This document shows positions 5,806 to 42,843 of a stretch of 64,000 nt of DNA, piece by piece (position 1 is the stretch's first letter; every line of letters starts with the position of its first letter). Under the pieces are notes generated by a model. The model was not told where the DNA came from. It saw nothing but the letters and a program-made list of their open reading frames with translations, and ran no database searches. The DNA comes from Candidatus Gottesmanbacteria bacterium UBA6580 (GTDB taxonomy: Bacteria > Patescibacteriota > Microgenomatia > UBA10105 > UBA927), in contig DJJA01000003.1 of NCBI GenBank assembly GCA_002433895.1, positions 107,185 to 171,184 on the forward strand. The letters are read 5' to 3'. Made by a program: the position numbers and the translations under genes.

Positions 5806-5915
5806 TTACTTCACTATAGCACACAAAACACAGCCGCCTCGACCGCTTGACAAGCTGAGGCTGGTTGTTTAGTATGTGGACAACTTATCCACAGACTGCT
5901 CTTTACCTCATAAAT

Positions 5916-7283: not shown

Positions 7284-7464
7284 TGTTTCCCACTTATCCA
7301 CATTTATCCGTAAATTATCCACATAGTATTCCACTTTTCCGCGCTCGTTTTCTTCCTAGTTATCCTCATTTTGTTTTATCGGTTTGTCTTGTTGTTGACA
7401 CACAAACTGAAAAAACATACACTTTTCCACGCGTAATTCTTATTACTACTTCTTTTATATCTAT
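7284..7464. promoter_or_regulatory. oriC: DnaA-box cluster plus AT-rich unwinding element between dnaA and dnaN
   Basis: TTATCCACA at 7294-7302 and 7315-7323, TTATCCGTA at 7304-7312, TTATCCTCA near 7349-7357; followed by an AT-rich tract 7370-7464 ending at the dnaN start. Confidence 0.75.
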
Positions 7465-9582: not shown

Positions 9583-11742
9583 TTATTGACACCCCGGAGG
9601 TAGCGGAATAGGAACGTTTTGGTTTGGTCCTTTATACCCCCAATGTAAATGCGTTCCTGTGCCTGGACCGTTGTTGCCATAAGTATACCCTGTTGTATCA
9701 ACATACCCAATAACAGTGCCGGCAGGGATAAGCGTTGGTGAGCCGGAGTTTGCTGCAACCACTGGTGACACATCTAGTAAATGAGCATAATTTGTACAAT
9801 ATTGCTGTTTTGTGGAGGGGTCGGTCGCGACAAGCACCACATTGTTTCCGTAACTTGCCGCCTTGTATTGATACGGTAGATAAGAGTTTGCGTATGAGGC
9901 GATATAGGCGTCGTGAGCTGCAACCACCGGCGTTCCCTGTGCTGCAGCAAAATCCCATGCATTAAGCGTTTTATGAGATCCCGTTGAGGTGAACGGCCCC
10001 TGGCTAATCGGCGCGCGTACCGGGCAAGTGGTGATAGGGGCGACCGGCGAGGTTCCACTCCATACACAACTAAACGTTGTTACATCAGCCGCAACCTCAT
10101 TTATTTCTTGTTTAAGATTTCTCAGTGATGCGAGGATGGCACTCACTTTGGCGCTATGTGAAATAAGGGACAAATTAAGCGGCGAAGGAAAGACAAATAA
10201 AAATATAAGCGCAACAATGACGATTATCGATACGAGAAGCGGCATGTCCTGTCCCATGGGGATGGGAATAGTGGCCGCCCTTCTGGAGCTAGAGAGCTGA
10301 CGGGGGATAAGGGGGTTCGTTAAGAAGAATGACGCTGACCGGTCGACAAACGCGCCTATAGCGCCGCCGACGGCGTTATTAAGCGCGCTTAGTCCAAACC
10401 ACGGGAAAAATGAGGCGCGCACCTTTCTTTTTTGCCGTGCCGTTTTTACGGCCGCCGTCTCGGTAGCGCGAAACACGTCCCACGGGGCAATAGTTGAAGG
10501 TAAGAAGTTCCTTCCTTTTGGTGACGTGGCACTTGCGCGCGCAAGCTCGAAATAATCAAGGACGCGCTCTTTTGTGCCATGAGTAAGAACCGGGCCCAGC
10601 GGCCCCCGGAACACCGAAGAAAACACGTCGCTTACCAGTGACCGTGCCTGTCCCGATTGTTGTCTTTCAGATAGTTGGTGGGTAAGATTTTGAGATATAT
10701 TCGTGAACAATGCGCTATGGACAAAATTTTCTCCAAGCCGGTCAGTAAAGCTTTGCGCGCTTGTTAACATTGATCTGAGCGTGCCATTTACTTTTTCATG
10801 GATAATCATTTCCCGAAGTGGTTCTCCCACAAGAGATAAAACACCATCGGCTCCCTGTTGGAGCCCCTTCGCCGCCCCTTTTGCGTTTGCCGCAGAGAAA
10901 AAGTTTAGTCCACCGTTCCTTTCTTGTTTTGCCTCGAGCGATTCGGCGATGTGCGCCAATTTATTTGCCCGGGCAAGCGATTCGGCGGTTGTTTCAGAAG
11001 GGGGGGCGTTTAACACCACATCGACGAGCACGTCGGGGCGCTTCATATCAATATCGTCATAGAGCGCTGTCGTGAGCGTCGCGGCGCGCTTTGCCTGTTG
11101 TGTGACGCCCGAGACATACGCATTGTTCGCTTCAAGGACGTCGTTAATGGTTGTTTTTAACTGGGCTGCCTGTTCCTGGGTTAATGTGCCCCCGGTTATT
11201 GCGTTTGAGGCAAGTATAAGTTCTGCAAATCTTTCTTTTGTTTGTTGCTGTGTTGCTTCTCCTGATGCTGCGATGAGGGCGCTGTCGGCAACAGCACCCA
11301 CCCGGTCTTCGGAAAGCGTGGGCATGGTCGAGCTAAACCGCGTTACCAGATCATGAACAAACGCGCGCCGCCGCTCTTTTTGACTGGTAACCGAGGTTGC
11401 TGCAGCCTGTTTTATGCGCGATGAGGCGTATTTCCGCACTTCACCCACAGCTTTCACCTCGTTTTCCAACAGCGCTTGGTCGGGAAGTTGCGATTGAAAA
11501 TTAGGGAGTTCTTTTAGTTTTTCTGAGCCCCGGGAAACAATTTCCGTAAACACCTTAACCAATTCGTCTTCCCCCATGATCTCTGCCTGCCCCAGAGATG
11601 TTTTTTGCTCCTCTATGAGTTCCCGAAGATATGAATACTGGCTTGCCGCGGCAATCGCTTCGTATATAGAAATGCTCCCCGAAGCGACGTCAGATAGTAG
11701 GTTATCAGCAAATTCACGGAGCGTTTGAGGATCGTTTGCCAT
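9583..11742 (-). CDS. T4SS-associated cell-wall hydrolase: large helical N-terminal domain, single TM, C-terminal M23 (LytM-type) metallopeptidase
   Basis: C-terminus carries the M23 signature (AWDF, HDAY, YGNNVVLV, YAHLLDV, GTHLHWG = HxxxD ... HxH); TM helix MPLLVSIIVIVALIFLFVF at about aa 495-515; N-terminal 480 aa helical with no motif. Confidence 0.6.
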   Translation of the reverse strand: MANDPQTLREFADNLLSDVASGSISIYEAIAAASQYSYLRELIEEQKTSLGQAEIMGEDELVKVFTEIVSRGSEKLKELPNFQSQLPDQALLENEVKAVGEVRKYASSRIKQAAATSVTSQKERRRAFVHDLVTRFSSTMPTLSEDRVGAVADSALIAASGEATQQQTKERFAELILASNAITGGTLTQEQAAQLKTTINDVLEANNAYVSGVTQQAKRAATLTTALYDDIDMKRPDVLVDVVLNAPPSETTAESLARANKLAHIAESLEAKQERNGGLNFFSAANAKGAAKGLQQGADGVLSLVGEPLREMIIHEKVNGTLRSMLTSAQSFTDRLGENFVHSALFTNISQNLTHQLSERQQSGQARSLVSDVFSSVFRGPLGPVLTHGTKERVLDYFELARASATSPKGRNFLPSTIAPWDVFRATETAAVKTARQKRKVRASFFPWFGLSALNNAVGGAIGAFVDRSASFFLTNPLIPRQLSSSRRAATIPIPMGQDMPLLVSIIVIVALIFLFVFPSPLNLSLISHSAKVSAILASLRNLKQEINEVAADVTTFSCVWSGTSPVAPITTCPVRAPISQGPFTSTGSHKTLNAWDFAAAQGTPVVAAHDAYIASYANSYLPYQYKAASYGNNVVLVATDPSTKQQYCTNYAHLLDVSPVVAANSGSPTLIPAGTVIGYVDTTGYTYGNNGPGTGTHLHWGYKGPNQNVPIPLPPGCQ

Positions 11743-11747: not shown

Positions 11748-13664
11748 TTAGCCGGTTTTATTGGTTTGTACGGTTTCGACAGTGAAAATAGGACGATTTG
11801 ATTTCGGAAGCGCAGTCGCTTCCTGTGTCACCGGTTGGGCGTCGTGTTGAGGCGCCTGGTTTACCCCCGGTTTTTCCGCGAGCGCCTCTTGAGGTCTGGT
11901 GGTTGCAACCTCGTGTTCCTCTGGGCTTGCGATGACCCGCATGGCGGCATGCGCGGGACCCGCAAAAAATAACCCTTGTCCCACGTCTGCCGCAAGAAGT
12001 AGGTGTTTTTCTCCTTCAGAAAGATAAAACACCTGCGCGATTGTATCAATCGCCGCAGAAGACTGTTTGAGTAAAATTTGCATACTGCTGTTTTGAATAA
12101 TCGCCTTGCCCATTTCTGTTGCAAGAAAATCTTCCACATCTTGTGTGATGGTTGTAAGCCCAAGATAGTATTTGCGCGCCCGCTTCGCGATACCGTAGAG
12201 AAACTGTGCAGAATCTGGATATTTCATAAGGTACCACGCTTCATCCACGATAAGTAACCGTCGGCGTTTGTTATATCTGATTTTGTTCCAAATAAAATCC
12301 AGGATGAGATACATGGCAATGGGCCGCAGCTCATCTTCCAGATCGCGGATAGAAAACACCGTAAGCTGGTTTCTGATTGCTACATTTGTTTGTTGATCAA
12401 AAATACCCACAAGGCTTCCCCGGACAAATTTTTCTATTCGGTCGGCGAGTCCTTTCGCGAGCACCTCTTCCATGCCGACAAGCGTTTTGTATAAATCCTC
12501 CATTAGTGGTGGCTCTTTTGAGTGTGTGGAGGGGTCGGGGGTAATCCCTTTTTGTTTGTAAGTTAATATAATCGCGCGATCAAGCAACGCATCTTCTGTG
12601 GGGGTGAGCCTCCCCATTACCACCCGGAAAAATCCATGAAGCGACAATATTTTTTGACCCAACTCGCTTTCGTCGTTGCTGCCCCCAGACAGAAGCGCAA
12701 GGTCAAACGGATTTATTTTTGTGGACGATCCGAAACGGAAGCGTATATATTCGCCCCCCAGTGTGTGGGTAAGATTTTCATATTCGTTTTCCGGATCAAT
12801 GATAATTACTTCGGTATCAAACATGAGGCTCCGCATAACCTCAAGCTTCACCATGTAGCTTTTTCCGCCTCCTGACTTACCAAACACAACCGAATTCGCG
12901 TTTTCGAGAGTAAACCGGTCAAAAATAATAAGCGAATCGTTGTGTTCGTTGAGACCATAAAGAATGCCTTCGTTTGCTGTAAGCTCACTTGTCGTGAACG
13001 GGAATGTTGTGGCAAGCGACGTGGTGTCCATGTTTCGTGTTACCACGAGCCGGTCTTTTCCTGTGGGAAGCGTTGTTTTTAGCCCCTCTTCCATCTGAAG
13101 GATGGCTTTTTTCGTGACAATGAGTAGTGATCCTAGTGTTGCTTCCACCTGTTTCGTCGCTTTATCAAGATCCTCGCGGGTTTTAGCGGGGATAGTGACA
13201 TAGAGACCAAATTGGAAAAAGCGCTCAGAGCCTTTTGCCAACTCTTGTTGAAGCGCTAGCGCGTCTTCCAGCGCAACCTGGACTGATGGTTCAATAACGC
13301 GTCCGCGTTTAAGGTCGGACTGTATCGTTGCTTCCATTTCTCCAACTTTGCGCTTAAGGTTTTCGAGAATTTCCTCGCTTCTCGTGGGGTAAATATACAT
13401 GGAAATATCGAGCGTGTGATTAAATGAAATAAGCGGCTCCAGCCAGTTTGCCGAAACAAAACGGGGGTAGCCCGCTACAAAAAGCGTCCGGTAGTACCAG
13501 TCGCCAACCTTAAGCAGGTCAAAATCTACTTCGATTGCGGGCGGCGCAATAACATCAGTAACGGTTAGAGGTTTTTGCCTGAGCGATGCGGCTCCACCCT
13601 TCGGTAGGGGCGGGGACCCCACCATTCGTCCTAGTAACGATGCGATATTTTTTGAATTAGACAT
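11748..13664 (-). CDS. VirB4/TrbE/PrgJ-family type IV secretion ATPase
   Basis: Walker A VVFGKSGGGKSYMVK, Walker B LLIVDEAWYLM, later IITQ motif; N-terminal region like Gram-positive VirB4 homologues; start MSNSKN (13664) is preferred because it just overlaps the upstream gene end. Confidence 0.8.
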   Translation of the reverse strand: MSNSKNIASLLGRMVGSPPLPKGGAASLRQKPLTVTDVIAPPAIEVDFDLLKVGDWYYRTLFVAGYPRFVSANWLEPLISFNHTLDISMYIYPTRSEEILENLKRKVGEMEATIQSDLKRGRVIEPSVQVALEDALALQQELAKGSERFFQFGLYVTIPAKTREDLDKATKQVEATLGSLLIVTKKAILQMEEGLKTTLPTGKDRLVVTRNMDTTSLATTFPFTTSELTANEGILYGLNEHNDSLIIFDRFTLENANSVVFGKSGGGKSYMVKLEVMRSLMFDTEVIIIDPENEYENLTHTLGGEYIRFRFGSSTKINPFDLALLSGGSNDESELGQKILSLHGFFRVVMGRLTPTEDALLDRAIILTYKQKGITPDPSTHSKEPPLMEDLYKTLVGMEEVLAKGLADRIEKFVRGSLVGIFDQQTNVAIRNQLTVFSIRDLEDELRPIAMYLILDFIWNKIRYNKRRRLLIVDEAWYLMKYPDSAQFLYGIAKRARKYYLGLTTITQDVEDFLATEMGKAIIQNSSMQILLKQSSAAIDTIAQVFYLSEGEKHLLLAADVGQGLFFAGPAHAAMRVIASPEEHEVATTRPQEALAEKPGVNQAPQHDAQPVTQEATALPKSNRPIFTVETVQTNKTG

Positions 13665-14319
13665 TTGATTCCTTTCCAAGACTTAACATAGTAACGTCTG
13701 GCGGCGGATTTCCCGGATTGTACATACTGAAAAACAGTTTTACGAGTGCATCAGAGTTAAGTTGTACTGCGTGTAACCCAACTCTCGCGAGCAACCGCAC
13801 AAGGTGATCTCTTTTGGGGAGAAGCACGGTTTGCGCACGGTCGTATATATATGATTTTTCGTAAGGTAGCCCGCCCTTTTTGGGTCCGAATAAAAGTGTA
13901 GAAGATACGCCGAGCTCCACGCTGGAAAACGGAAGGACTATATAGAATTTTTTGTCGAGCACATCCTTTTCTTTTACCATAGACGCGACAAACAGCCGGT
14001 ATCCATGAATACTCTTTGTAAGTTTCGGGTTTTTTTGACGCGCCTCCTGATCTTCGAGCAGCTTGAGGTAGGCAGAAATGTCCTTGTGTTTTGTCTGAAT
14101 AAGAATTTGGATAGGAAATGAAAGGGAGTTGAGTAATCCCGCATACGCGTAAATAATTGCGTCCTGTTCTTTTTCAGAAAGCAGGCCGAAATTGACCGCC
14201 GTTGTGGCAATAACGAGCGAGACTGATCCATCAGCAAACATAACAAGATCACGGTCAATATCGACAATTTCCGTAAATACTTGTGTGGATGCCCGTATGG
14301 GTGTAATTGGTTCTGCCAT
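13657..14319 (-). CDS. hypothetical T4SS operon protein
   Basis: ORF between the PrgI-like gene and virB4; preferred start MAEPITPIR at 14319 (the alternative at 14385 would overlap the upstream gene by 60 nt); no motif. Confidence 0.4.
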   Translation of the reverse strand: MAEPITPIRASTQVFTEIVDIDRDLVMFADGSVSLVIATTAVNFGLLSEKEQDAIIYAYAGLLNSLSFPIQILIQTKHKDISAYLKLLEDQEARQKNPKLTKSIHGYRLFVASMVKEKDVLDKKFYIVLPFSSVELGVSSTLLFGPKKGGLPYEKSYIYDRAQTVLLPKRDHLVRLLARVGLHAVQLNSDALVKLFFSMYNPGNPPPDVTMLSLGKESNV

Positions 14320-14323: not shown

Positions 14324-15652
14324 TTAAACGGATGTTTTTCCGAAAATTTCCTGGGCGAGCTTTTCGCGCGTGAGCACCTTTTCACTTTTAGCGATTATTT
14401 CGAGTACGGGAACGACCGTGCCATTGAGGGTGATCTGTACCCTGGTAAAAGTAAATCTTCCCCGCGGGTCTTCTATTTCTACAAAGTACACGCCGCTTGT
14501 AAGTGGTGTTGACGCGGCAAATTGTCCGAGCTTGTTTGTTTTGAGCGCGCGCATGGGCACCCCCTCACCGTTTGTGACAGTAACAAGAATGCCGGGCAAC
14601 AAGTTGCCTACGTCATCTTTGACAAGGCCAGTGATCACATTTGGCGCGTTCGTCAGACGCGGTAGCCCCACCTTTACCGCCCCCTCCTCAGTTGTAATGA
14701 CATTAACTGTGCCGCGGGACGACCCCGCAAGGCTATCTTCCCGAGGGGTCGTTGCCCGGGGTGATACTGGCTGTGGCGGAGCCTCCCTGCGTTTGAGTGC
14801 GACCAACTGCTCTTCTGTGTTTGTTTTTGCCGCAAGTGTTTCGGTGAGTTGTTTTTGTAATTCAAGTACCCGCTCTTCCGTCATGGTTTTTGTCGCAAGC
14901 TTTGCTTCGAGAGCCGCGAGGGTTTCCTCAAGCTGTTTAATTTTCTGCTGTGTTTCCTCACTTACCACGCTAGAGGTGGTCTGAGGCGCAGGTGGCGGTG
15001 GCGCCTCGACGTGTTGACCGGTAACCGATGGAACCGGACGCGCAACGGGTGGAGCGGGAGTTGGATGATGTGCGGGTGCTGCTACATGTTTTGGACGGAA
15101 CAAAGACATGATTTCATCGATAAGTGTTACGTGTGGTTTCTGTGCATGCACAGTCATTGGAGAAGTGGGGTGGGGCGTTTGCTGGGCGCCGGCATTTCCC
15201 GGCTGAAACAAGTCAGAAAGCGCGCTTTTCGGGTTCGTTTGTGGTGCTGTTGCGGGTTTTGCCGCTGGTGTCTGCGGAGGGATGACAGGAGCCGCTGACA
15301 CAGCGGCAGCAGGTTTGTTGCCCTGAGGCGTTGGCGGTGCCTTGGCGGCGGGAGGCGTCATTGATGCTTCATGTGACCAAATGTATTGTGTGGGGTTATA
15401 GATGCTTTTAAAGAAAGAAAAAACCCACACATCCATCGGCCGCTCCTCGATTGGGATAAAAGCAAACCCTATACCTAAAAAAGCGAACGCACCGGTAAGC
15501 GGCCAGGTGATAATAAAAGGGAGGGGTAGTTTATACGCGATAAACGCGAGAATTGCTCCGGCACACAAGTAGCCGAATTGTTTCAGCGTCATGTCGCCGA
15601 TCAGCCGAAACTGAAACGTCGTAACATTTTGAGGGACAGGATGTTGTTCCAT
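14324..15652 (-). CDS. PrgI/VirB3-like membrane protein fused to Pro/Ala-rich linker, coiled coil and C-terminal carboxypeptidase-regulatory-like / Cna-B-like beta-sandwich domain
   Basis: N-terminus NVTTFQFRLIGDMTLKQFGYLCAGAILAFIAYKLPLPFIITWP with two TM helices resembles PrgI-family (VirB3 analogue) proteins; then a PAAKAPPTPQ-type low-complexity stretch, a heptad coiled coil (QQKIKQLEETLAALEAKLATKT...), and C-terminal GILVTVTNGEGVPMRALKTNKLGQFAAS..GVYFVEIEDPRGRFTF typical of CarbopepD_reg-like folds. Confidence 0.55.
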   Translation of the reverse strand: MEQHPVPQNVTTFQFRLIGDMTLKQFGYLCAGAILAFIAYKLPLPFIITWPLTGAFAFLGIGFAFIPIEERPMDVWVFSFFKSIYNPTQYIWSHEASMTPPAAKAPPTPQGNKPAAAVSAAPVIPPQTPAAKPATAPQTNPKSALSDLFQPGNAGAQQTPHPTSPMTVHAQKPHVTLIDEIMSLFRPKHVAAPAHHPTPAPPVARPVPSVTGQHVEAPPPPAPQTTSSVVSEETQQKIKQLEETLAALEAKLATKTMTEERVLELQKQLTETLAAKTNTEEQLVALKRREAPPQPVSPRATTPREDSLAGSSRGTVNVITTEEGAVKVGLPRLTNAPNVITGLVKDDVGNLLPGILVTVTNGEGVPMRALKTNKLGQFAASTPLTSGVYFVEIEDPRGRFTFTRVQITLNGTVVPVLEIIAKSEKVLTREKLAQEIFGKTSV

Positions 15653-15774
15653 GTACCCTTCATTGTAGAGGGAAAAATTAAGGTGTTCAATAGCACAAAG
15701 CGCATCAGGACCGTGAAAACTCCACTTTTAGAGTTTTCACGAATGAAAAAAATAATCTATGATAAGATAGCCTC

Positions 15775-17961
15775 ATGAGTGTGTCACCAGTGACGTTGTT
15801 GGAAATTCAAAACGCTAGGGAGAGCGAGGAGTCGCCGCTTGCGATGGAGCAGGTGTTTGCTGCGCTGGGAAGCGGTGGAGCCCACCAGAATATATTCCAG
15901 CGCCTTTTTGGCGGCGGCCATACGCAAGCATCACACTTTAGTCTGGAGATAGTCTCGGTGAATAGTCGGATCCATTTTTTTCTTGCGGCTCCCGATTCAC
16001 TCCGTGAGTATCTCGAGAGCCAGCTCACCGCGCAGTACCCAAGGTTGCTTATTACGAAAATCCCCGACTACATGGAGCATTTTCTTTCGCTTCCACACGC
16101 GTCGGGGCAACTAGTGTACGGGAGCAGCTTTTATTTACCTCTCAAGACATACAAGGACATAAAAGACCTGGATATTCTTTCGGGCGTCGTTGGGCAATTC
16201 GCGAAGTTACAGCCTCAGGAGGCTGTAGCGCTCCAGATACGAGTAGCTCCCGCAGGGAGCGGGTGGCAGCGGTCGATTGCCTCCATGATTGCCAAAGGAG
16301 TGCCCGACCCGAACTCAACCGTTGGGCGCACCAAACAGCACCCGCACGCCAGACTTATGGAAACAAAGATGAACCAGGTGGGTTTTTCAGCGGCGATAAG
16401 GCTTGTCGCTGTTGCGCCAACAGAAGGCCGGGCCAAGCAGGTGCTCCACACGTCCGCAGGTACATTCGGGGTGTACACATCGGGCGAAGGAAACAGCCTG
16501 GTGTTGTCTGAGCCGCAATTTTGGCAAAAAAAGAAATTTGAGCAGTCGTTTTTACTTCGGGGAGATTATTTGCGTCCCCGGTTCCAGGTGTTGGGAGCAA
16601 GCGAGCTATCGTCATTGTGGCATCCGCCCGGCATGGGACTTTCCATGATCAAAAATATTCATTGGGGGGCACGTCTTTTGGGGGAGGCGCCCGCTAACTT
16701 GCCGATTGCGACTGATGATCAGGAAGAAAAACGAAAAATTAATTTTTTTGCAAAAACGGAATACAAAAATACCCCCACCACGTTCGGTGTTAAAAAAGAA
16801 GACCGGAGAAAACACCTCTATGTTATCGGAAAAACTGGCACCGGTAAGTCAACAATGATCGCGAACATGGCAATAAATGATATGAAAAACGGCGAAGGTA
16901 TGGCAGTTATCGATCCACACGGAGATCTCTGTGACATTTTATTACATTATGTACCGTCAAACAGGATAAATGATGTTGCTTACTTGGATCCGTCTGATAT
17001 CGATAACCCGTTTTATTTAAACCCCCTTGAGGTAAAAAATCCGGCGTACCGCGAGTTGATAGCTTCGGGGATCGTGTCGATATTTTATAAGTTGTATCAC
17101 ATGAGTTGGGGGCCGCGGCTTGAGTATATTCTCCGAAACACAATTTTGACCCTAACGCATGTTCCGCAGTCGACATTTCTTGATATACCCGAGCTGCTCA
17201 CCAACGAACGGTTCCGGGAAAAGGTGGTAGAAAAACTTGATGACCGGGTACTCAAAAATTTTTGGCTCAACGAGTTTAATAAGTTGTCTCCACAGCTTAA
17301 AAGCGAGTCGATATCACCAATTCTTAACAAGGTTGGACAATTTCTTTCGTCAAAAACTATTCGAAACATCGTGGGACATCCCACTTCTACCATTGATTTG
17401 GAACACATGATGAACGAGGGGAAGATTGTGATCGTCAATCTTTCTCAGGGGAAGCTCGGGGAAGATAGCAGCGCGTTGTTGGGGGCGATGATTATTACAA
17501 AAATGCAGCTTGCCGCCATGAATAGGGTATATAAATCAGAGGAAGACAGACGGGATTTTTATCTCTATGTCGATGAGTTTCAGAATTTTGCCACGCAGTC
17601 GTTTATAAAGATATTGTCTGAGGCGCGAAAGTACCGTCTAAATCTTTCGCTTGCGAACCAGTATATAGGTCAAATTGATGAAGACGTACAGAAGGCGATT
17701 TTCGGTAACGCAGGCTCAATCGTGTCATTTGCGGTGGGAGCCGCAGACGCGAGGCTTCTGGGGCGTGAATTCGGCGAAAAGTATGAAGAGTCAGAGTTGG
17801 TGGGCCTCGGAAATTTTCAGATAGTCCTAAAGTTATCTATAGACAACCAAACGTCAACGCCGTTTTCGGCAGTTACGTTACCGTTGCCGAAGAGCCGCAA
17901 TGAACATCGTGAGACAGTTATCCGTGTTTCTCGCGAACGGTACACAAAAAAGGTACAATAG
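15775..17961 (+). CDS. type IV coupling-protein-like ATPase (TraG/VirD4/TraD family, TraG-D_C type), no N-terminal TM
   Basis: Walker A YVIGKTGTGKSTMIAN followed by AVIDPHGDL; Walker B / TraG-D_C-like LYVDEFQNFA; divergently transcribed from the virB4 operon; no hydrophobic helices at the N-terminus. Confidence 0.6.
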   Translation: MSVSPVTLLEIQNARESEESPLAMEQVFAALGSGGAHQNIFQRLFGGGHTQASHFSLEIVSVNSRIHFFLAAPDSLREYLESQLTAQYPRLLITKIPDYMEHFLSLPHASGQLVYGSSFYLPLKTYKDIKDLDILSGVVGQFAKLQPQEAVALQIRVAPAGSGWQRSIASMIAKGVPDPNSTVGRTKQHPHARLMETKMNQVGFSAAIRLVAVAPTEGRAKQVLHTSAGTFGVYTSGEGNSLVLSEPQFWQKKKFEQSFLLRGDYLRPRFQVLGASELSSLWHPPGMGLSMIKNIHWGARLLGEAPANLPIATDDQEEKRKINFFAKTEYKNTPTTFGVKKEDRRKHLYVIGKTGTGKSTMIANMAINDMKNGEGMAVIDPHGDLCDILLHYVPSNRINDVAYLDPSDIDNPFYLNPLEVKNPAYRELIASGIVSIFYKLYHMSWGPRLEYILRNTILTLTHVPQSTFLDIPELLTNERFREKVVEKLDDRVLKNFWLNEFNKLSPQLKSESISPILNKVGQFLSSKTIRNIVGHPTSTIDLEHMMNEGKIVIVNLSQGKLGEDSSALLGAMIITKMQLAAMNRVYKSEEDRRDFYLYVDEFQNFATQSFIKILSEARKYRLNLSLANQYIGQIDEDVQKAIFGNAGSIVSFAVGAADARLLGREFGEKYEESELVGLGNFQIVLKLSIDNQTSTPFSAVTLPLPKSRNEHRETVIRVSRERYTKKVQ

Positions 17962-17967: not shown

Positions 17968-18522
17968 ATGAATATAGGACTGTTGGGAGGCGCGTTTAAC
18001 CCGCCGCATTTTGGCCACCTCATGATTGCCCGCCAGGTGTTGGATTTTACCGATACAGACGAGGTGTGGTTTTTGCCTAACTTTGGCCAGATTCCTCCAA
18101 AGCCTGTGGCTGGTGTTGCTGACCGGCTTGCGATGACGAAGTTATTACGGCTTCCAAAAACACGGGTGTCCACGATAGAGATAGACAATTCGCTTGATGG
18201 GGACACGATCCATTTGCTTCCGTATTTGCCCAAAGAGCATAATTTCCGCTTTATTATCGGCTCCGACCAGCTTCCGACGTTTCACTTGTGGGGACGGTGG
18301 GAAGAGTTGCTTCGTTCAATGCCGTTTTTAGTGTTTCCAAGGTATGGGTTTCCCAACGAGCCGTTGTATCCGAACATGACACTCGTTTCTAACGAGCTGC
18401 TTGTGGGAACGAATATTTCATCGACAAAAATCCGCAAGCGGGTTGAGCGCGGGTTGTCCATTGAGGAGTTTGTGCCCCCCAACATTGCTTCGTATATCAC
18501 CTCACATGGGTTATACCGATAA
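17968..18522 (+). CDS. nadD: nicotinate-nucleotide adenylyltransferase
   Basis: GGAFNPPHFGH (HxGH nucleotidyltransferase motif) and ISSTKIRKRV (ISST motif). Confidence 0.85.
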   Translation: MNIGLLGGAFNPPHFGHLMIARQVLDFTDTDEVWFLPNFGQIPPKPVAGVADRLAMTKLLRLPKTRVSTIEIDNSLDGDTIHLLPYLPKEHNFRFIIGSDQLPTFHLWGRWEELLRSMPFLVFPRYGFPNEPLYPNMTLVSNELLVGTNISSTKIRKRVERGLSIEEFVPPNIASYITSHGLYR

Positions 18523-22264: not shown

Positions 22265-23872
22265 TTAGTGGCCGCTGCCACCACCAGTAATGGAGCTGAG
22301 GCCTTTATCAGCGCCCTCACGCGCAATTTGCATCGGCGTTCTCGCTTCCGGCTTGTGGCGGAATGCGCTTGCGATAAAGCTCGCCTGATATCCTAGGTTA
22401 AATAGCGTGCCGACTCCTGATCCCAACGGGCCAACGATAGGTCCGATGCCGCCCGGTACGACCGGTTCTGCCTTAAGTGATTTCTGTAGTCCGGCAACAA
22501 TCGTCGGGATAACCATAAGCATGCCTAGGCCTATAAGACCCGCCATGCCATATGTTCCTTCACCCGTTGAAAGTAGGGGAGGCGCCCAAATAGATGTTGC
22601 GGTGTCCTGAGACGTAAGCACCGCGGTGATGAGGAGTAAGAGCACAGTGATAGGAAATACCAGAATTTTTGATAACAAGTTCCGGAACCACGAGTTAAAC
22701 GCGTTTGTTCCAGGAATTGCCTCCATCATCAGCTGGAACGGGGCGGTGAGCAAGGCGATAATGATGTTAATGTAGGCGTCCAAAAGCATAAAGATAAGCC
22801 GGATGACGCCGAAAAGCAAAATGATAAGGAAGATAACCGCAAGCAGCACCGGGCCGCTTGTTAATCCTAATAATGCCCCGCGTAAACCAAACATATAGCC
22901 AATAACTCCGGGAACCACTGTCCAGCCAGCCACTTTCATCGGATCATTCTGTGTAATCATGGTTCCGATATCGTCATATGCCTGAAAGCCGCTGGCAAAA
23001 AAGAACCGTAGGAGCCCGCTAACGCCACCGTTTAAAAGCAGTCCCGTGGCGTTATCCGGATCTGATGTTGTTGATGGAGCAGAAAAGCTCGGCGGCAATA
23101 AATCGATGTTGAGCGTAGTTGCGAGACTTAATAGTCTACCAAGGTTTCCACCTGACGCGCTGTCTACCGCGGAAGCTGAAAGCACGATGGCAAGATACAT
23201 AAGGTCAATCATGGCTCCTACTATGGCATAGGAGAAGGTGACGAGTCCCAACGCTATGACAATTCTCGGGATGGCATTTTGCACGGTAACCACAGTTTTC
23301 GGGTCAATTTTTTTCCGGAACATCACCATGAAGCCAACGACAATTATAATTGCGGCAAGCAGCGCGTAGGCGATGTTCCGAAATGTTTTCCAGAGAGGTA
23401 GCATGCTTTGGAGTCCGGAAAAACCAATGCCCTGCGCTTCTGCTTTGGGCGGCATAAATCCGAGCGTTCTCCCGACGTCCGCAATATATTCCGAGCTCCG
23501 TGCGGGAGGGTGTTGATACATCGCAAGCGTGCTCCGAGCCATGCCTGCAAGCGCGCTTTTTTGATAGCTTAGTCCGATAGGACAATCCGGATATGCAGCG
23601 TCACAGAGTCCGCGAAATCCCACGAGGAGTTGTACCTGGGCGATAGTGGAAGTGCCGGCGTCCCCAACTTGTTTATTAAGTGCTCCCACTTCCGCGGCCT
23701 TCATAAATCCTGCGATGACGCAGTTTACGTCCATAAACCATGTTGCATCATCACATTCATTTGCTGTTGTGGTGGCGCTATCTGCTCCTTGTGCCAGAGC
23801 GGGCACGGGAATAGCAAGAAATACCACAGCGGCAACAATGAACGCCCAAACATACGTTTTGATACGCGACAT
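22265..23872 (-). CDS. VirB6/TrbL-like polytopic T4SS inner-membrane channel protein
   Basis: Signal peptide MSRIKTYVWAFIVAAVVFLAIPVPALAQG, Cys-containing N-terminal periplasmic segment, then at least 7 hydrophobic helices with long Gly/Ala-rich TMs; terminal gene of the pilin array. Confidence 0.5.
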   Translation of the reverse strand: MSRIKTYVWAFIVAAVVFLAIPVPALAQGADSATTTANECDDATWFMDVNCVIAGFMKAAEVGALNKQVGDAGTSTIAQVQLLVGFRGLCDAAYPDCPIGLSYQKSALAGMARSTLAMYQHPPARSSEYIADVGRTLGFMPPKAEAQGIGFSGLQSMLPLWKTFRNIAYALLAAIIIVVGFMVMFRKKIDPKTVVTVQNAIPRIVIALGLVTFSYAIVGAMIDLMYLAIVLSASAVDSASGGNLGRLLSLATTLNIDLLPPSFSAPSTTSDPDNATGLLLNGGVSGLLRFFFASGFQAYDDIGTMITQNDPMKVAGWTVVPGVIGYMFGLRGALLGLTSGPVLLAVIFLIILLFGVIRLIFMLLDAYINIIIALLTAPFQLMMEAIPGTNAFNSWFRNLLSKILVFPITVLLLLITAVLTSQDTATSIWAPPLLSTGEGTYGMAGLIGLGMLMVIPTIVAGLQKSLKAEPVVPGGIGPIVGPLGSGVGTLFNLGYQASFIASAFRHKPEARTPMQIAREGADKGLSSITGGGSGH

Positions 23873-23909
23873 AGTGTAATTATCCGTGATACATTCCGCT
23901 AAAGTCAAT

Positions 23910-24221
23910 CTACTGGGTTATTGTAAAGTCGGTAACTGTGACACCAGTAAATTTTTCTATAGTGAGAATAATAAGATAGGCGACCGACATAAGAATTATT
24001 CCTGCGATGGCCTGGGTGACTGATCCTTTGGCTGCCTCTAGCTTTTTTTGGTCGCCGGCAGAAAACAGGAAATTAAATCCGCCAACAAGAAGCATGACAA
24101 ATAACGCGACCGCGCCTAGTGATACCACTGCCCGAATAACGCCGGTAACAAGGGGGACAATACATTGAATAGAAGCGACACCTTCGGCTCCCGGTATGTT
24201 TGCGCACGCGTCAGAGTTCAT
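23910..24221 (-). CDS. T4SS pilin-like protein (VirB2/TrbC-like two-helix pilin), paralog 1
   Basis: 103 aa, two hydrophobic helices separated by the conserved FSAGDQKKLEAAK..ITQAIAGIILM loop shared by all paralogs. Confidence 0.6.
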   Translation of the reverse strand: MNSDACANIPGAEGVASIQCIVPLVTGVIRAVVSLGAVALFVMLLVGGFNFLFSAGDQKKLEAAKGSVTQAIAGIILMSVAYLIILTIEKFTGVTVTDFTITQ

Positions 24222-24288
24222 ACTGCTATTATACGAGTATCAGAAGAGGGGTGACAAGCACACTTTTCTGTTTTATACGCTTCGTGTT

Positions 24289-24618
24289 TTAGTAAGGCTT
24301 CGGGAAATTAATTGAGCCGCCAATGATCTGGACGCCCAAGAAGTTTTGGACGAGTGTCATAATGGCCCAAGCAGCGCCCACAATGATGAGTCCGACGATT
24401 GCATGGGTAATCTTATTCCGCGCTTCTTCCATGCCTGCCTTGTCGCCACCTGAGGTGATCCATTTAATACCTCCCAAAATGAGGTAAAGAAATGCCAAAA
24501 GCGCTGCGATAATAAGCACGGTTCCGACAAGCGCGCTGATAAGCTTGCCAACATCGGTAATTTTAATGGAATCCGGCTGCTTAATATCTAATGCGGCCTG
24601 GGCAAATACTTTGTTCAT
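24289..24618 (-). CDS. T4SS pilin-like protein, paralog 2
   Basis: 109 aa; GGIKWITSGGDKAGMEEARNKITHAIVGLIIVGAAWAI core between two TM helices. Confidence 0.6.
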   Translation of the reverse strand: MNKVFAQAALDIKQPDSIKITDVGKLISALVGTVLIIAALLAFLYLILGGIKWITSGGDKAGMEEARNKITHAIVGLIIVGAAWAIMTLVQNFLGVQIIGGSINFPKPY

Positions 24619-24703
24619 AAATGAATCCTTTCGTCAAATCAATACAGCCTTTATTATACCATCATTTACCATTTTTGCGCAACAAAACAAGATTTGTCAA
24701 TCC

Positions 24704-25048
24704 CTAGTTAGTGATTGTTGGGATAGGGAGATTCGGGAAATCGATACCAAAAAAGTTACCCACAATCATCATGACTGCCCAGGACGCGCCCACCACGACC
24801 AACCCGACGAGCGCGTTGGTAATTTTGTCACGGGCAGACTGAAGCTTTGTTTTGTCGCCGCCACTTGTTACCCAGTCAAATCCACCGAGGAGCATGTAAA
24901 GAAGAGTAGAGATAAACGCCAAGATAAGGAATAAACCAACAAGCGCGCTGATCAACGAACCGATAGCCAGCGGACCCACTTCGTTGCCGCCTTGCCCGAG
25001 ATTACCGGGAAGAACGGGATTGACGATTTGTGCGAGGTGTCTATTCAT
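24704..25048 (-). CDS. T4SS pilin-like protein, paralog 3
   Basis: 114 aa; GGFDWVTSGGDKTKLQSARDKITNALVGLVVVGASWAV core. Confidence 0.6.
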   Translation of the reverse strand: MNRHLAQIVNPVLPGNLGQGGNEVGPLAIGSLISALVGLFLILAFISTLLYMLLGGFDWVTSGGDKTKLQSARDKITNALVGLVVVGASWAVMMIVGNFFGIDFPNLPIPTITN

Positions 25049-25050
25049 GG

Positions 25051-25416
25051 TTATTGGTTCGGACTGAGTAGTTCCATCAATCCGCTCGGATCAGACAGTG
25101 TGAAGTCAAAACCAAAGAATGTGCTGGCAAGCGCAAGTATTGCCCAGCCAGCGACAACCACGATAAGCCCGACAAACGAGTTGGTAAGCCGGTCTTTTGA
25201 GCTTTGGAGCTTTGCTTTATCTCCGCCGGAGTTAATCCAATTAAATCCTCCAATGACAAACTGAAATAGAAACCATATACCGGCAGCGACGGTCATGATG
25301 CCAATAACAGAAGACACAACCTTGGTAATGCCGGTAAGCCCGTCTCCTGGCGCGTTGCCGAAAGGCCCCAAGCCTTCACCGCCAATTTGTCCTAATTCAA
25401 GCGCTAAGTATTTCAT
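25051..25416 (-). CDS. T4SS pilin-like protein, paralog 4
   Basis: GGFNWINSGGDKAKLQSSKDRLTNSFVGLIVVVAGWAI core; start MKYLALELGQ at 25416 is preferred because it abuts the upstream gene stop (25418). Confidence 0.55.
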   Translation of the reverse strand: MKYLALELGQIGGEGLGPFGNAPGDGLTGITKVVSSVIGIMTVAAGIWFLFQFVIGGFNWINSGGDKAKLQSSKDRLTNSFVGLIVVVAGWAILALASTFFGFDFTLSDPSGLMELLSPNQ

Positions 25417-25417
25417 G

Positions 25418-25777
25418 TTATTCGTTTGGCCCGTAAATTGTCGGATTGAGAATAAAATCCGCCCGTCCAAATATGAGATGCCCAAATAGCGAAGCTATGG
25501 CAAATGATCCAACAATGATAACGAGACCTAAGAGTGATTGCCATATGCGGCTCCATGCCTCAGCAAGTTTTTTGCTGTCGCCCGCGGCGTTCATGTAGTT
25601 GTAACCGGCGATGATGAAATTAAAGAGTGCATATATGCCTGCGGCGACAAATGCCAAGCGGAGGATGTTCGTGATAAACATGCCGACCGCACCGGTTTGT
25701 ATGCTGCCATACCCGGTGCCCGACAACGGGCTTTCTATTGATCCGACGATGTCTCCAACTTGCGCCAATTCTTTCAT
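25418..25777 (-). CDS. T4SS pilin-like protein, paralog 5
   Basis: 119 aa; AGYNYMNAAGDSKKLAEAWSRIWQSLLGLVIIVGSFAI core. Confidence 0.55.
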   Translation of the reverse strand: MKELAQVGDIVGSIESPLSGTGYGSIQTGAVGMFITNILRLAFVAAGIYALFNFIIAGYNYMNAAGDSKKLAEAWSRIWQSLLGLVIIVGSFAIASLFGHLIFGRADFILNPTIYGPNE

Positions 25778-25784
25778 ACAATAA

Positions 25785-26132
25785 TTATTGCGGGCTCAGT
25801 ATGTTTAGACCGGTGATGACCTCTATGATTTGTATGATCCAAAATGAACCCAATACGATAAGAAGTCCCGCTATCGCGCCGGTGAGCGCCGTTTTGCCTT
25901 GCTGCGCTTTTTTTGCGTCTCCCGCGGCTACTATAACGTTAAATCCGCCGAAAATCAACAAAATGAAGCTTAAAATACCAGCAAGCATGAAGGCATTTTT
26001 TACGATGGCGGTCACCAGCATGCCGAAGTTGGTCAAATTCGGATTAGGTGCTAATTCCTGTAATGACTGGGCAAACACGCGTTCAAGCATACATTCATAT
26101 TTAAGTGTAAGGAATTTGCCCGGGTCAGTCAA
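25785..26132 (-). CDS. T4SS pilin-like protein, paralog 6 (first gene of the array)
   Basis: GGFNVIVAAGDAKKAQQGKTALTGAIAGLLIVLGSFWI core; an alternative start MLERVF lies at 26090. Confidence 0.55.
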   Translation of the reverse strand: MTDPGKFLTLKYECMLERVFAQSLQELAPNPNLTNFGMLVTAIVKNAFMLAGILSFILLIFGGFNVIVAAGDAKKAQQGKTALTGAIAGLLIVLGSFWIIQIIEVITGLNILSPQ

Positions 26133-42569: not shown

Positions 42570-42660
42570 GGAGGAGTCGCATAGCCCGGTCCATTGCGAG
42601 GGTTTGCTAAACCCTTGAGCCGATGAGGCTCGCGTGGGTTCGAATCCCACCTCCTCCGCC
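42570..42660 (+). tRNA. tRNA-Ser(GCU)
   Basis: Acceptor GGAGGAG/CTCCTCC, discriminator G, anticodon stem AGGGT/ACCCT with loop TTGCTAA, long variable arm, T-loop GGTTCGAATCC. Confidence 0.85.
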
Positions 42661-42682
42661 GGGTTTTACATGGTGTGTATTT

Positions 42683-42769: not shown

Positions 42770-42843
42770 CTCGAAGAGAGGCCTTGTCTCCTTTGCGTGA
42801 GGGTTGTAGGAAATGGATAATACGAGGGGTTGTTGCAGAGACA

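What the first reader, a model, noticed from the sequence alone, without database searches (positions are those of the whole stretch)
14324..15652. PrgI/VirB3-like membrane module fused to a long Pro/Ala linker, a coiled coil and a carboxypeptidase-regulatory-like beta-sandwich
VirB3/PrgI proteins are normally about 100-120 aa. Here the two-TM PrgI-like N-terminus continues into a 330-aa tail that could span the cell wall: a low-complexity PAAKAPPTPQ stretch, a heptad coiled coil, and a C-terminal CarbopepD_reg/Cna-B-like domain. This would be an unusual surface-exposed extension of a core T4SS subunit.
Basis: partly seen in the sequence, partly recalled or inferred. Interest (0 to 1): 0.6.

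Follow-up and report, generated by a model that had tools for sequence, protein, structure and literature searches.

The report
Long-tailed VirB3/PrgI secretion-system subunit
This gene encodes the small membrane anchor (VirB3/PrgI) of a type IV secretion machine in an ultrasmall Patescibacteria bacterium. It carries a conserved 350-residue tail (flexible linker, coiled coil, beta-sandwich) that is real and apparently undescribed, but that most likely hangs into the cytoplasm rather than reaching the cell surface.

Summary
Window 14324-15652 (-) is one intact 442-aa ORF with four parts: a PrgI/VirB3-like two-helix membrane hairpin (aa 1-93), a Pro/Ala-rich disordered linker (aa 94-229), a 61-residue heptad helix (aa 230-290), and a transthyretin/CarboxypepD_reg/CnaB-like beta-sandwich with a terminal helix (aa 315-442).

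It is not a frameshift artefact. The same fusion occupies a single ORF in 148 of 160 related loci, and the exceptions are contig ends or frameshifted assemblies. The C-domain profile finds more than 1000 clusters at 50% identity.

The gene sits in the known oriC-proximal Patescibacteria T4SS cluster, here from Ca. Gottesmanbacteria (Microgenomatia). The cluster holds six VirB2-like pilins, a VirB6-like protein, a T4CP-like ATPase, PrgI-ext, TrsD, VirB4, an M23 hydrolase, dnaN and dnaA.

- Two TM helices put both termini on the same side of the membrane.
- K/R counts favour N-in/C-in.
- pCF10 PrgI aligns in register and has strongly basic flanks.
- VirB3 termini are cytoplasmic.
- Natural VirB3-VirB4 fusions extend from this same end.

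My best reading is a cytoplasmic tether/adaptor arm at the TrsD/VirB4 ATPase centre, possibly docking the TM-less T4CP-like ATPase encoded next door. This is a new variant of a known subunit, of moderate interest.

The parts
14324..15652 (-). prgI-ext: 442-aa extended PrgI/VirB3-family protein (coordinates include the stop codon)
   Evidence: Single ORF. Pfam PrgI plus CarboxypepD_reg. 752 full-length homologues in Patescibacteria.
15374..15652 (-). aa 1-93: PrgI/VirB3-like domain. It comprises a near-invariant N-terminal segment (aa 1-25), TM1 (aa ~26-46, nt 15515-15577), an L-P-x-P turn, TM2 (aa ~48-68, nt 15449-15511) and a conserved post-TM helix (aa 69-93).
   Evidence: Pfam PF12666 over aa 5-88. 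Hydropathy. Invariant columns. AF2 helices H11-41, H46-65, H72-85. In-register alignment to pCF10 PrgI.
14966..15373 (-). aa 94-229: Pro/Ala/Thr/Gln-rich disordered linker, net positive. It contains three conserved short motifs: aa 141-150 PKSALSDLFQ, aa 171-188 with a short amphipathic helix, and aa 206-215 PVPSVTGQHV.
   Evidence: Composition. pLDDT <50 except aa 177-185. Motif conservation. Linker length varies from 57 to 191 aa in relatives.
14783..14965 (-). aa 230-290: 61-residue alpha-helix with a discontinuous heptad pattern (coiled coil). The core R261-V-L-E-L-Q-K-Q-L-T270 is 92% identical on average; R261, E264, Q266, Q268 and L269 are invariant.
   Evidence: AF2 H230-290, block pLDDT 74-93. 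Family-level 3.5-residue periodicity. Invariant columns.
14327..14710 (-). aa 315-442: transthyretin-like (CarboxypepD_reg/CnaB-like) beta-sandwich followed by a conserved C-terminal helix (aa 424-437)
   Evidence: Pfam PF13620. AF2 models. Foldseek against PDB. The profile finds 1605 cluster representatives, with the match almost always at the C-terminus of 300-560-aa proteins.
15653..15774 (.). 122-bp divergent intergenic region between prgI-ext and the T4CP-like gene, with promoter-like hexamers on both strands
   Evidence: 6 promoter-like sites against 0.6 expected. These are consensus matches only.
13657..14319 (-). trsD-like gene, equivalent to the VirB4 N-terminal domain. The likely true start is the ATG at 14319, 4 nt after the prgI-ext stop.
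   Evidence: NCBIfam TrsD and VirB4_plasma N-region hits, and a weak TraC_F_IV hit. The 220-aa orthologue starts 4 nt after prgI-ext in L001-L003.
11748..13679 (-). virB4-like ATPase (CD1110 family) lacking the N-terminal domain
   Evidence: NCBIfam NF045971 at E=3e-120, matching profile positions 180-730 of 752. Pfam P-loop_TraG/AAA_10.
15775..17961 (+). T4CP/VirD4-like ATPase without any TM segment, transcribed divergently from prgI-ext
   Evidence: Pfam DUF87, TrwB_AAD_bind and TraG-D_C. NCBIfam conju_CD1115. No hydrophobic segment. 57/60 orthologues also lack one, whereas pCF10 PcfC has two hydrophobic TM regions.
9583..11742 (-). 719-aa protein with a C-terminal M23 peptidase domain (VirB1-type cell-wall hydrolase candidate)
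   Evidence: Pfam PF01551. Conserved position after virB4.
22265..23908 (-). 547-aa polytopic membrane protein (VirB6-like candidate)
   Evidence: Multiple hydrophobic segments. No Pfam hit. Conserved position next to the pilin array. The VirB6 role is inferred.
23910..26090 (-). Array of six tandem VirB2-like T4SS pilin genes (101-121 aa, two hydrophobic helices each)
   Evidence: Pfam PF18895 T4SS_pilin, E=1e-10 to 1e-4. Hydropathy.

Best explanation
The gene encodes the VirB3/PrgI-type cytoplasmic-membrane subunit of the chromosomal, oriC-proximal type IV secretion system of a Candidatus Gottesmanbacteria bacterium (class Microgenomatia, Patescibacteria).

Shown:
- aa 1-93 are a PrgI-family two-helix hairpin.
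- The gene is translationally adjacent to trsD (the detached VirB4 N-domain) and virB4.
- The 350-aa C-terminal extension is a conserved, clade-wide module, not an artefact. It consists of a disordered basic Pro/Ala linker with three short conserved motifs, a ~9-nm heptad helix, and a transthyretin-like beta-sandwich capped by a helix.

Inferred from homology and the positive-inside rule:
- Both termini are cytoplasmic.
- The near-invariant N-segment and post-TM2 helix clasp TrsD/VirB4 as VirB3 does in R388.
- The tail hangs into the cytoplasm beside the ATPase barrel.

Inferred mechanism: the tail acts as a flexible tether plus oligomerising coiled coil plus protein-binding head, comparable to ZipA. 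It scaffolds the ATPase energy centre or recruits a soluble partner to it. My favoured partner is the TM-less T4CP-like ATPase encoded divergently next door, which lacks the N-terminal membrane anchor that classical coupling proteins use. Substrates or adaptors are the alternative.

Confidence by step:
- PrgI/VirB3 homologue in a T4SS: ~0.9.
- Tail cytoplasmic: ~0.7.
- Tail is a scaffold/adaptor at the ATPases: ~0.5.
- T4CP specifically as partner: ~0.25.
For: Identity and context:
- PrgI profile match covering the whole profile; 70/70 relatives match.
- Order prgI-ext, trsD, virB4 in 78/80 genome loci and in L001-L003.
- Cluster content matches the published Patescibacteria T4SS near dnaA (PMC12102498). 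TrsD and VirB4 assignments come, the pilins.
- The Saccharibacteria orthologue SEML1_0010 (PrgI family, 300 aa) is essential.

Fusion is real:
-.

Topology:
- Only two TM helices, and none in 120 tails.
- K+R distribution is about 2 / 0-1 / 2.6-4.
- pCF10 PrgI aligns in register and has K/R-rich N and C flanks.
- VirB3 wraps the VirB4 N-domain (PMC9259494).
- VirB3-VirB4 fusions exist (PMC12102498).
- Mossey et al. 2010 reporter fusions placed both termini in the cytoplasm (my own knowledge; the paper was not retrievable).

Tail is functional rather than a spacer:
- Coiled-coil core and C-domain are as conserved as the PrgI domain.

Partner idea:
- The T4CP-like ATPase has no TM here or in 57/60 orthologues, whereas the PcfC control has two TM regions.
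- pIP501 offers a precedent, where the small 2-TM TraI is proposed to anchor the T4CP TraJ to the membrane (PMC12857230).
- The transthyretin-like fold also occurs in cytoplasmic proteins, such as HIUase, catechol dioxygenases and transhydroxylase.
- A cytoplasmic protein of this genome, the VirB4 C-terminus, also ends in a Pro/Gln/Ala-rich stretch (translation).
Against: - No direct topology evidence. No dedicated TM-topology predictor, reporter data or complex model was available.
- The flank just after TM2 is net acidic in this sequence (E69, E70, D74 against R71). By a charge-difference rule this would favour export.
- Pro-rich linker plus coiled coil plus CnaB/CarboxypepD_reg-type sandwich is a classic extracellular, wall-spanning architecture. 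Most Foldseek hits are surface proteins.
- The only Rosetta-stone evidence for a cytoplasmic location was a receiver-domain fusion, which proved to be a probable assembly chimera.
- T4CP adjacency is not universal. About 20 of 80 loci, including the Woesebacteria/Collierbacteria-type ones, keep the tail but have no T4CP within 4 kb.
- In Southlakia the distant t4cp is not essential (PMC12102498).
Confidence: 0.55

Rival explanations
1. First reader's model. The hairpin has N-out/C-out topology, or only one helix spans the membrane. The tail is exported, the Pro/Ala linker crosses the peptidoglycan/S-layer, the coiled coil oligomerises into a stalk, and the beta-sandwich forms a surface ring or adhesin around the T4SS pilus.
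For: - The architecture resembles extracellular stalk proteins. Foldseek hits are dominated by CnaB pilin/adhesin domains, carboxypeptidase regulatory domains and the archaeal S-layer anchor SlaB.
- There is an acidic patch right after TM2.
- This T4SS makes VirB2-like pilins in a monoderm, and no wall-spanning component is known for it.
- VirB3 is hexameric in R388, so six tails could form a collar.
Against: - It requires a topology opposite to that of VirB3/PrgI homologues.
- It would place 4-6 K/R residues outside and leave a 5-residue turn with 0-1 K/R as the only cytoplasmic loop.
- The near-invariant N-segment and post-TM2 helix, which in VirB3 contact cytoplasmic VirB4, would be outside.
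- There is no third TM in any of 120 tails.
- The C-domain is very strongly conserved (mean column identity 75%). That is unlike surface-exposed domains of epibionts, though this argument is only suggestive.
Confidence: 0.22
2. The tail is cytoplasmic but is purely a structural self-assembly element. Coiled-coil bundling of neighbouring PrgI subunits would stabilise or count the hexameric inner-membrane complex. There is no recruited partner, and the beta-sandwich only caps the bundle.
For: - Heptad helix with an invariant core.
- VirB3 sits at 6 copies around VirB4 in R388.
- The tail persists in loci without an adjacent T4CP.
Against: - The three conserved short linear motifs in the disordered linker and the highly conserved sandwich surface look like partner-binding features.
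- Linker length varies from 57 to 191 aa, which suits a tether better than a rigid scaffold.
Confidence: 0.18
3. Artefact: two separate genes (a short prgI and a downstream soluble protein) joined by a sequencing or assembly frameshift, or a chance resemblance of a generic 2-TM protein to PrgI.
For: - Both Pfam hits in this one sequence fall just below the gathering thresholds.
- A few database entries show prgI and the tail as two overlapping ORFs.
Against: - The fusion is a single ORF in 148/160 independent loci from many projects and lineages.
- The split cases lie in assemblies where neighbouring genes are also fragmented, or where the pieces overlap out of frame.
- All 70 relatives match PrgI, and the gene always precedes trsD-virB4.
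Confidence: 0.02

Closest known systems
PrgI of Enterococcus faecalis pCF10 / VirB3 family (Pfam PF12666; TrwM of R388)
   Same: Two-TM hairpin with a short conserved N-segment and a post-TM helix. The gene lies immediately upstream of the VirB4 ATPase genes. It aligns in register with pCF10 PrgI. The expected role is anchoring or wrapping the VirB4 N-domain.
   Different: 442 aa against 117 aa. It carries a 350-aa linker / coiled-coil / beta-sandwich extension that is absent from classical members. Its VirB4 partner is split into TrsD plus VirB4.
SEML1_0010, the 'PrgI family protein' of Southlakia epibionticum ML1 (Saccharibacteria), in Wang et al. 2023 (PMC10633639)
   Same: Patescibacteria T4SS PrgI homologue with the PrgI domain at aa 5-90 and a long C-terminal extension (300 aa in total). 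It is followed by a TrsD-like gene and virB4, and it is essential for epibiotic growth.
   Different: Its tail is annotated only with a weak helical-bundle match, not with a CarboxypepD_reg-like sandwich. It belongs to a different class, Saccharimonadia rather than Microgenomatia. The published text searched does not discuss the extension.
Natural VirB3-VirB4 fusion proteins (e.g. Campylobacter plasmids; cited in PMC12102498)
   Same: A large cytoplasmic polypeptide is appended to the C-terminus of the VirB3 hairpin, which is the same attachment point as here.
   Different: There the appended part is the VirB4 ATPase itself. Here it is a non-enzymatic tether / coiled-coil / sandwich module, and TrsD/VirB4 remain separate genes.
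ZipA of E. coli, and TraI-TraJ of pIP501 (functional analogies only)
   Same: ZipA consists of a membrane anchor, a long Pro/Gln-rich flexible cytoplasmic tether and a globular head that binds a soluble partner (my own knowledge). pIP501 TraI is a small 2-TM protein proposed to anchor the T4CP TraJ to the membrane.
   Different: No sequence or fold relationship. The partner of the present tail is unknown.
CarboxypepD_reg (PF13620) / CnaB / transthyretin-like beta-sandwich domains
   Same: Same fold by Foldseek (E down to 5e-5, TM-score up to 0.75) and a weak profile match. The characteristic T-x-x-x-G-x-F turn and G-x-Y strand are present.
   Different: The Pfam hit is below the gathering score in this sequence. 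The domain has an extra N-terminal strand/helix and a conserved C-terminal helix. No isopeptide-bond residues were examined. The context is the C-terminus of a T4SS membrane subunit, probably intracellular.

Membership tests
PrgI / VirB3 family (PF12666) | Significant profile match over the whole domain | tested here: met
   E=1.8e-5 over aa 5-88, covering profile positions 1-87 of 91. The score of 25.7 bits is 1.3 bits under the gathering score for this sequence alone. 70/70 relatives match, best E=3.7e-9. A related fragment scores 47.8 bits.
PrgI / VirB3 family (PF12666) | Two transmembrane helices forming a hairpin | tested here: met
   Hydropathy segments at aa ~26-46 and 48-68. AF2 hairpin, block pLDDT 79-92 across aa 21-60 and 71 for aa 61-70. 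Invariant L-P-x-P turn.
PrgI / VirB3 family (PF12666) | Small size (about 100-130 aa, 10-15 kDa) with only short extensions | tested here: not met
   442 aa, against 117 aa for pCF10 PrgI and the size stated in PMC12857230. This is the feature that makes it a variant.
PrgI / VirB3 family (PF12666) | Gene located next to virB4 in a T4SS cluster | tested here: met
   prgI-ext is followed by trsD (the VirB4 N-domain) and virB4 in the window and in 78/80 genome loci.
PrgI / VirB3 family (PF12666) | N- and C-termini cytoplasmic | tested here: inconclusive
   The positive-inside count favours N-in/C-in, and pCF10 PrgI aligns in register and is strongly N-in/C-in. No dedicated predictor or experiment was available.
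PrgI / VirB3 family (PF12666) | Binds and anchors the VirB4 N-terminal domain | not testable with these tools
   Needs complex prediction or biochemistry.
Patescibacteria MPF-FATA-like chromosomal T4SS (Quinonero-Coronel et al. 2025) | VirB4 plus TrsD plus PrgI/VirB3 plus VirB2-like pilin array, near dnaA/dnaN, with no relaxase nearby | tested here: met
   VirB4 and TrsD. Six T4SS_pilin genes. dnaA and dnaN at 5865-8571. No relaxase was seen among the ORFs scanned in 900-26100. Synteny is identical in L001-L003.
CarboxypepD_reg / transthyretin-like fold (PF13620) | Profile match above the curated threshold | tested here: inconclusive
   24.6 bits against a gathering score of 32.3 in this sequence. 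60/70 relatives match at E<=1e-3, best 1.9e-8. A PDB sequence search gives only E~0.8 to carboxypeptidase M.
CarboxypepD_reg / transthyretin-like fold (PF13620) | Seven-stranded Greek-key beta-sandwich | tested here: met
   AF2 model with strands at 341-420 and block pLDDT 82-91 over the sandwich. Foldseek hits 8bdw, 3mn8, 5aq0, 3qva and transthyretin.
CnaB domains of Gram-positive surface proteins | Intramolecular Lys-Asn/Asp isopeptide bond and extracellular, sortase-anchored context | not tested
   Isopeptide residues were not examined. There is no signal peptide and no C-terminal LPXTG sorting signal: the protein ends in ...EIFGKTSV. It is therefore not filed as CnaB.

The most novel reading that the evidence does not exclude
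The tail is in fact exported. Six copies around the channel would bundle through their coiled coils into a wall-spanning stalk or collar, topped by a ring of beta-sandwich domains. This would give the monoderm Patescibacteria T4SS an envelope-crossing structure built from VirB3 itself, a role no VirB3 homologue is known to have. It would require an inverted (N-out/C-out) VirB3 topology.
Probability: 0.2. Interest if true: 0.7.

Novelty: new variant of a known kind. Interest (0 to 1): 0.4.

Why it matters
The Patescibacteria T4SS is the only T4SS shown to be essential for its owner's growth, in the Tn-seq study of Southlakia. Its substrate and mechanism are unknown.

VirB3 is normally a minimal adaptor. 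Here it carries a strongly conserved 350-residue module across a whole class: more than 1000 clusters at 50% identity, and 148/160 loci examined. The papers I could search do not mention it. That points to a lineage-specific interaction at the ATPase centre, or less likely in the envelope, which could explain how this relaxase-less machine docks a coupling-type ATPase that has no membrane anchor.

It gives concrete targets for experiments: the coiled coil, the sandwich surface and three linker motifs. It also corrects an impression in the literature. In Gottesmanbacteria-type Microgenomatia, prgI is consistently two genes upstream of virB4.

Tried and rejected
1. Receiver-domain fusion (P0231). 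This protein has a response-regulator domain, then the coiled coil and C-domain, and sits next to a histidine kinase and trsD. It looked like Rosetta-stone proof of a cytoplasmic tail. I rejected it: the contig is a 1.85-kb singleton, and a sibling 95% identical over the shared part (P0269) has the normal PrgI N-terminus. A second odd chimera (NusA_N plus C-domain, P0271) comes from a similarly short singleton contig from the same archive. The case is probably an assembly chimera.

2. 'Split' prgI plus tail gene pairs (L005, L086, L087, and three metagenome loci). I rejected these as evidence for separate genes. The pieces overlap out of frame, and in L086 the neighbouring genes are fragmented too.

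3. hhalign of the N-domain alignment against the single pCF10 PrgI sequence. It gave an in-register alignment but only 5% probability. I used it only for register and charge comparison, not as proof of homology.

4. PDB sequence searches. The N-domain profile found nothing relevant, and the C-domain profile gave only E~0.8 hits.

5. The third homologue search, using the N-domain profile, returned only short fragments. It said nothing about tails in other classes.

6. The single-sequence heptad test was not better than shuffles. Only the family-level periodicity was informative.

8. T4CP adjacency as a co-occurrence test was inconclusive, because the flanks were only 4 kb.
Full report
**1. The observation.**

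Window 14324-15652 on the minus strand is a single 442-aa ATG-initiated ORF. Pfam matches PrgI (PF12666) across aa 5-88, which is profile positions 1-87 of 91. E=1.8e-5 and 25.7 bits, against a gathering score of 27. Pfam also matches CarboxypepD_reg (PF13620) at aa 340-411, with E=3.3e-5 and 24.6 bits against a gathering score of 32.3. Both hits are marginal in this one sequence but solid for the family. Of 70 aligned relatives (47-87% identical), 70 match PrgI (best E=3.7e-9) and 60 match CarboxypepD_reg (best E=1.9e-8).

Kyte-Doolittle scanning finds only two adjacent hydrophobic helices, at about aa 26-46 and 48-68. Residues 96-225 are 24% Pro and 18% Ala.

AlphaFold2 with a 70-sequence alignment gives the following:
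- a helical hairpin (H11-41, H46-65; block pLDDT 79-92 across aa 21-60, 71 for aa 61-70);
- a short helix at aa 72-85;
- disorder from aa 86 to 228, apart from a small helix at aa 177-185;
- one 61-residue helix (aa 230-290; block pLDDT 74-93);
- a beta-sandwich (strands at aa 316-420; block pLDDT about 92-95 over its core) with a terminal helix at aa 424-437.

A crude heptad score on the single sequence is no better than shuffles. Across the family, however, the conserved hydrophobic columns (234, 238, 241, 245, 248, 252 ... 262, 265, 269, 273 ... 283, 286, 290) give a sharp spectral peak at period 3.5. A discontinuous coiled coil is therefore supported.

A separate model of aa 310-442 was searched with Foldseek against the PDB. 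It hits CnaB2 (8bdw), the basal pilin EbpB, the transthyretin-like domains of carboxypeptidases D, N and M, transthyretin/HIUase, catechol dioxygenases and SlaB. E ranges from 5e-5 to 1e-3, with target TM-scores up to 0.75.

**2. It is a real, conserved fusion.**

The full-length protein finds 752 homologues. The best 120 are all 351-497 aa, nearly all with ~100% coverage, and where named they are 'PrgI family protein' from Patescibacteria.

A profile of the C-domain alone was searched against 1.84 billion cluster representatives. It finds 1605 proteins at E<=1e-3 and 1028 at E<=1e-10. The match is almost always at the C-terminus of a 300-560-aa protein. Of the 148 newly listed proteins, 127 also carry the PrgI-like N-domain, and the others are mostly fragments.

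In 80 loci from species-representative genomes, the N-domain and C-domain lie in one stop-to-stop ORF in 78. The two exceptions are a frameshift and a contig end. In 80 metagenome loci, 70 are fused, 7 run off the contig, and 3 look frameshifted. Apparent split genes occur in assemblies where the pieces overlap out of frame; in L086 the neighbouring genes are broken too.

Conservation is not that of a spacer. The N-domain is nearly invariant (M1-F26 almost entirely). The helix core RVLELQKQLT and the sandwich (KTNKLGQFAASTPL, EIEDPR, REKLAQEIFG) are highly conserved. Three short motifs inside the otherwise variable linker are also conserved, while the linker itself ranges from 57 to 191 aa.

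**3. Context.**

The genome-record titles place the family in Candidatus Gottesmanbacteria and other Microgenomatia (Woese-, Levy-, Davies-, Chisholm- and Collierbacteria). The closest genome locus is UBA5942, at 80% identity.

The window carries a complete Patescibacteria-type T4SS cluster beside the replication origin:
- dnaA at 5865-7283 and dnaN at 7465-8571;
- a 396-aa membrane protein;
- a 719-aa M23-peptidase protein;
- VirB4 of the CD1110 family, matching the profile only from position 180;
- a TrsD-like protein, equivalent to the missing VirB4 N-domain, whose likely ATG at 14319 lies 4 nt after the prgI-ext stop;
- prgI-ext itself;
- a divergently transcribed T4CP/VirD4-like ATPase;
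- a cytidylyltransferase-like gene;
- a 1203-aa protein with no family match;
- a 547-aa polytopic protein;
- six tandem VirB2-like pilin genes.

The order is identical in loci only 61% identical to the window. It corresponds to the system described by Quinonero-Coronel et al. 2025 (PMC12102498) and to the essential T4SS of Southlakia epibionticum (PMC10633639).

In Southlakia the 'PrgI family protein' SEML1_0010 is 903 bp (300 aa). It has the PrgI domain at aa 5-90 and a helical tail, and it is scored essential. Long-tailed PrgI is thus not confined to one class. Neither paper, nor the 2025 FEMS review (PMC12857230), discusses the extension. Searching PMC12102498 for 'carboxypeptidase', 'coiled' or 'transmembrane' found nothing.

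**4. Where is the tail?**

- *Same side as the N-terminus.* There are two TM helices and no further hydrophobic segment in any of 120 tails. The maximum 19-residue KD score is 1.54. The tail therefore shares its side of the membrane with the N-terminus.
- *Positive-inside rule.* Family-wide K+R counts are about 2 in the N-flank, about 1 in the 5-residue turn (0 in the more divergent members), and 2.6 after TM2. The last figure rises to 3-4 in divergent members, which end the domain in KK or RK. This favours N-in/C-in.
- *Comparison with pCF10 PrgI.* This 117-aa protein aligns in register: IWGITVREF with IGDMTLKQF, an LP turn, and GWYPV with AFIPI. It has very basic N and C flanks and an acidic turn.
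[quoted passage not shown] In the R388 cryo-EM structure, VirB3 wraps the N-domain of cytoplasmic VirB4. Natural VirB3-VirB4 fusions extend from exactly this end. From memory, Mossey et al. 2010 showed both termini to be cytoplasmic with PhoA/GFP fusions, but that paper was not retrievable.

There are counter-arguments. The flank immediately after TM2 is net acidic in this sequence. The Pro-rich linker plus coiled coil plus CnaB-like sandwich is a typical extracellular design. However, the transthyretin-like fold also occurs in cytoplasmic enzymes, and the cytoplasmic VirB4 of this genome also ends in a Pro/Gln/Ala-rich stretch.

I put the cytoplasmic location at about 0.7.

**5. Mechanism.**

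Shown: homology, synteny, architecture and conservation.

Inferred:
- The hairpin, N-segment and post-TM2 helix anchor TrsD/VirB4 as in other T4SSs.
- The tail forms a cytoplasmic arm. It has a basic flexible tether with docking motifs, an oligomerising ~9-nm coiled coil and a protein-binding sandwich. This is comparable in logic to ZipA.

The most specific candidate partner is the neighbouring T4CP-like ATPase. It has no TM segment here or in 57 of 60 orthologues, whereas the pCF10 coupling protein PcfC shows two N-terminal hydrophobic TM regions by the same test. In pIP501, a small 2-TM protein (TraI) has been proposed to anchor the T4CP TraJ to the membrane.

This partner assignment is a hypothesis at about 0.25. 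T4CP adjacency is not universal among tail-bearing loci. A purely structural self-assembly role and an exported stalk remain alternatives.

**6. Comparison and novelty.**

By profile, hairpin and gene position, the protein is a member of the PrgI/VirB3 family. It fails the family's 'small protein' criterion, so it is a variant rather than a typical member. The C-domain has the CarboxypepD_reg/transthyretin-like fold but is not demonstrably a CnaB domain. The surrounding system is already known.

What appears to be undescribed is the conserved tail module on VirB3 across Microgenomatia. I rate it 'new variant of a known kind' with interest 0.4. It is a useful lead for a system of high current interest. 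It is not a surprise that overturns anything, and its function is unproven.

**7. Dead ends.**

- The receiver-domain fusion P0231 looked like proof of a cytoplasmic location, but it is probably a chimeric 1.85-kb contig.
- hhalign to a single PrgI sequence gave low probability.
- PDB sequence searches were uninformative.
- The N-domain homologue search returned only fragments.
- Two fold libraries were unavailable.

Noticed in passing
window 13657-14319 (-) and 11748-13679 (-): VirB4 is split. A ~220-aa TrsD-like protein corresponds to the VirB4 N-terminal domain, and the 643-aa VirB4 matches the CD1110-family profile only from position 180. The trsD ATG lies 4 nt after the prgI-ext stop, which suggests translational coupling.
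   Followed up: partly
window 15775-17961 (+): The T4CP/VirD4-like ATPase has no transmembrane segment, and 57/60 orthologues next to prgI-ext also lack one. pCF10 PcfC, the control, shows two N-terminal TM regions. How this ATPase reaches the membrane is unexplained.
   Followed up: partly
window 23910-26090 (-): Six tandem, divergent VirB2-like T4SS pilin genes (101-121 aa, PF18895), directly followed by a 547-aa polytopic protein (22265-23908) that gives no Pfam hit. The latter is a candidate for the 'missing' VirB6 of Microgenomatia.
   Followed up: partly
window 18610-22221 (+) and 17968-18522 (+): A 1203-aa protein with no Pfam or NCBIfam match and no TM segment, and a cytidylyltransferase-like gene. 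Both are embedded in the T4SS cluster, and both keep their positions in loci only 61% identical (L001-L003).
   Followed up: no
loci L006-L085 compared with PMC12102498: The published survey says only 22.6% of Microgenomatia VirB3 homologues are associated with virB4. In the 80 genome loci fetched here, prgI-ext is followed by trsD and virB4 in essentially all. The published figure may reflect detection limits or the definition of neighbourhood.
   Followed up: no
L004 (P0231) and P0271: Short singleton metagenome contigs from the same archive (ENA) encode the coiled coil and C-domain fused to a response-regulator receiver domain or to a NusA N-domain. A sibling 95% identical over the shared part has the normal PrgI N-terminus, so these are probably assembly chimeras.
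   Followed up: yes
window 15653-15774: The 122-bp divergent intergenic region holds 6 sigma-70-like promoter matches against 0.6 expected. On the minus strand, one -10 element ends only 10 nt before the prgI-ext ATG, which suggests a very short leader or a leaderless transcript.
   Followed up: no
window 40690-41107 (+); 42570-42928, 46757-46828, 50055-50126, 52570-52652 (+): A tmRNA gene and six tRNA genes are present, and there is no rRNA in the window. Cumulative GC skew rises almost monotonically from about 8 kb, just past dnaA/dnaN. This is consistent with a replication origin near 6-8 kb.
   Followed up: no
record titles of L007, L009, L012 and others: Many MAG records carrying this Patescibacteria-specific cluster are titled 'uncultured Gammaproteobacteria/Pseudomonadales bacterium'. 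This is evidently a placeholder or a mislabel in those submissions.
   Followed up: no
window 11748-11940 (-), VirB4 aa ~580-643: VirB4 ends in a Pro/Gln/Ala-rich low-complexity tail (…PQEALAEKPGVNQAPQHDAQPVTQEATALPK…). Such segments therefore occur in cytoplasmic proteins of this organism.
   Followed up: no
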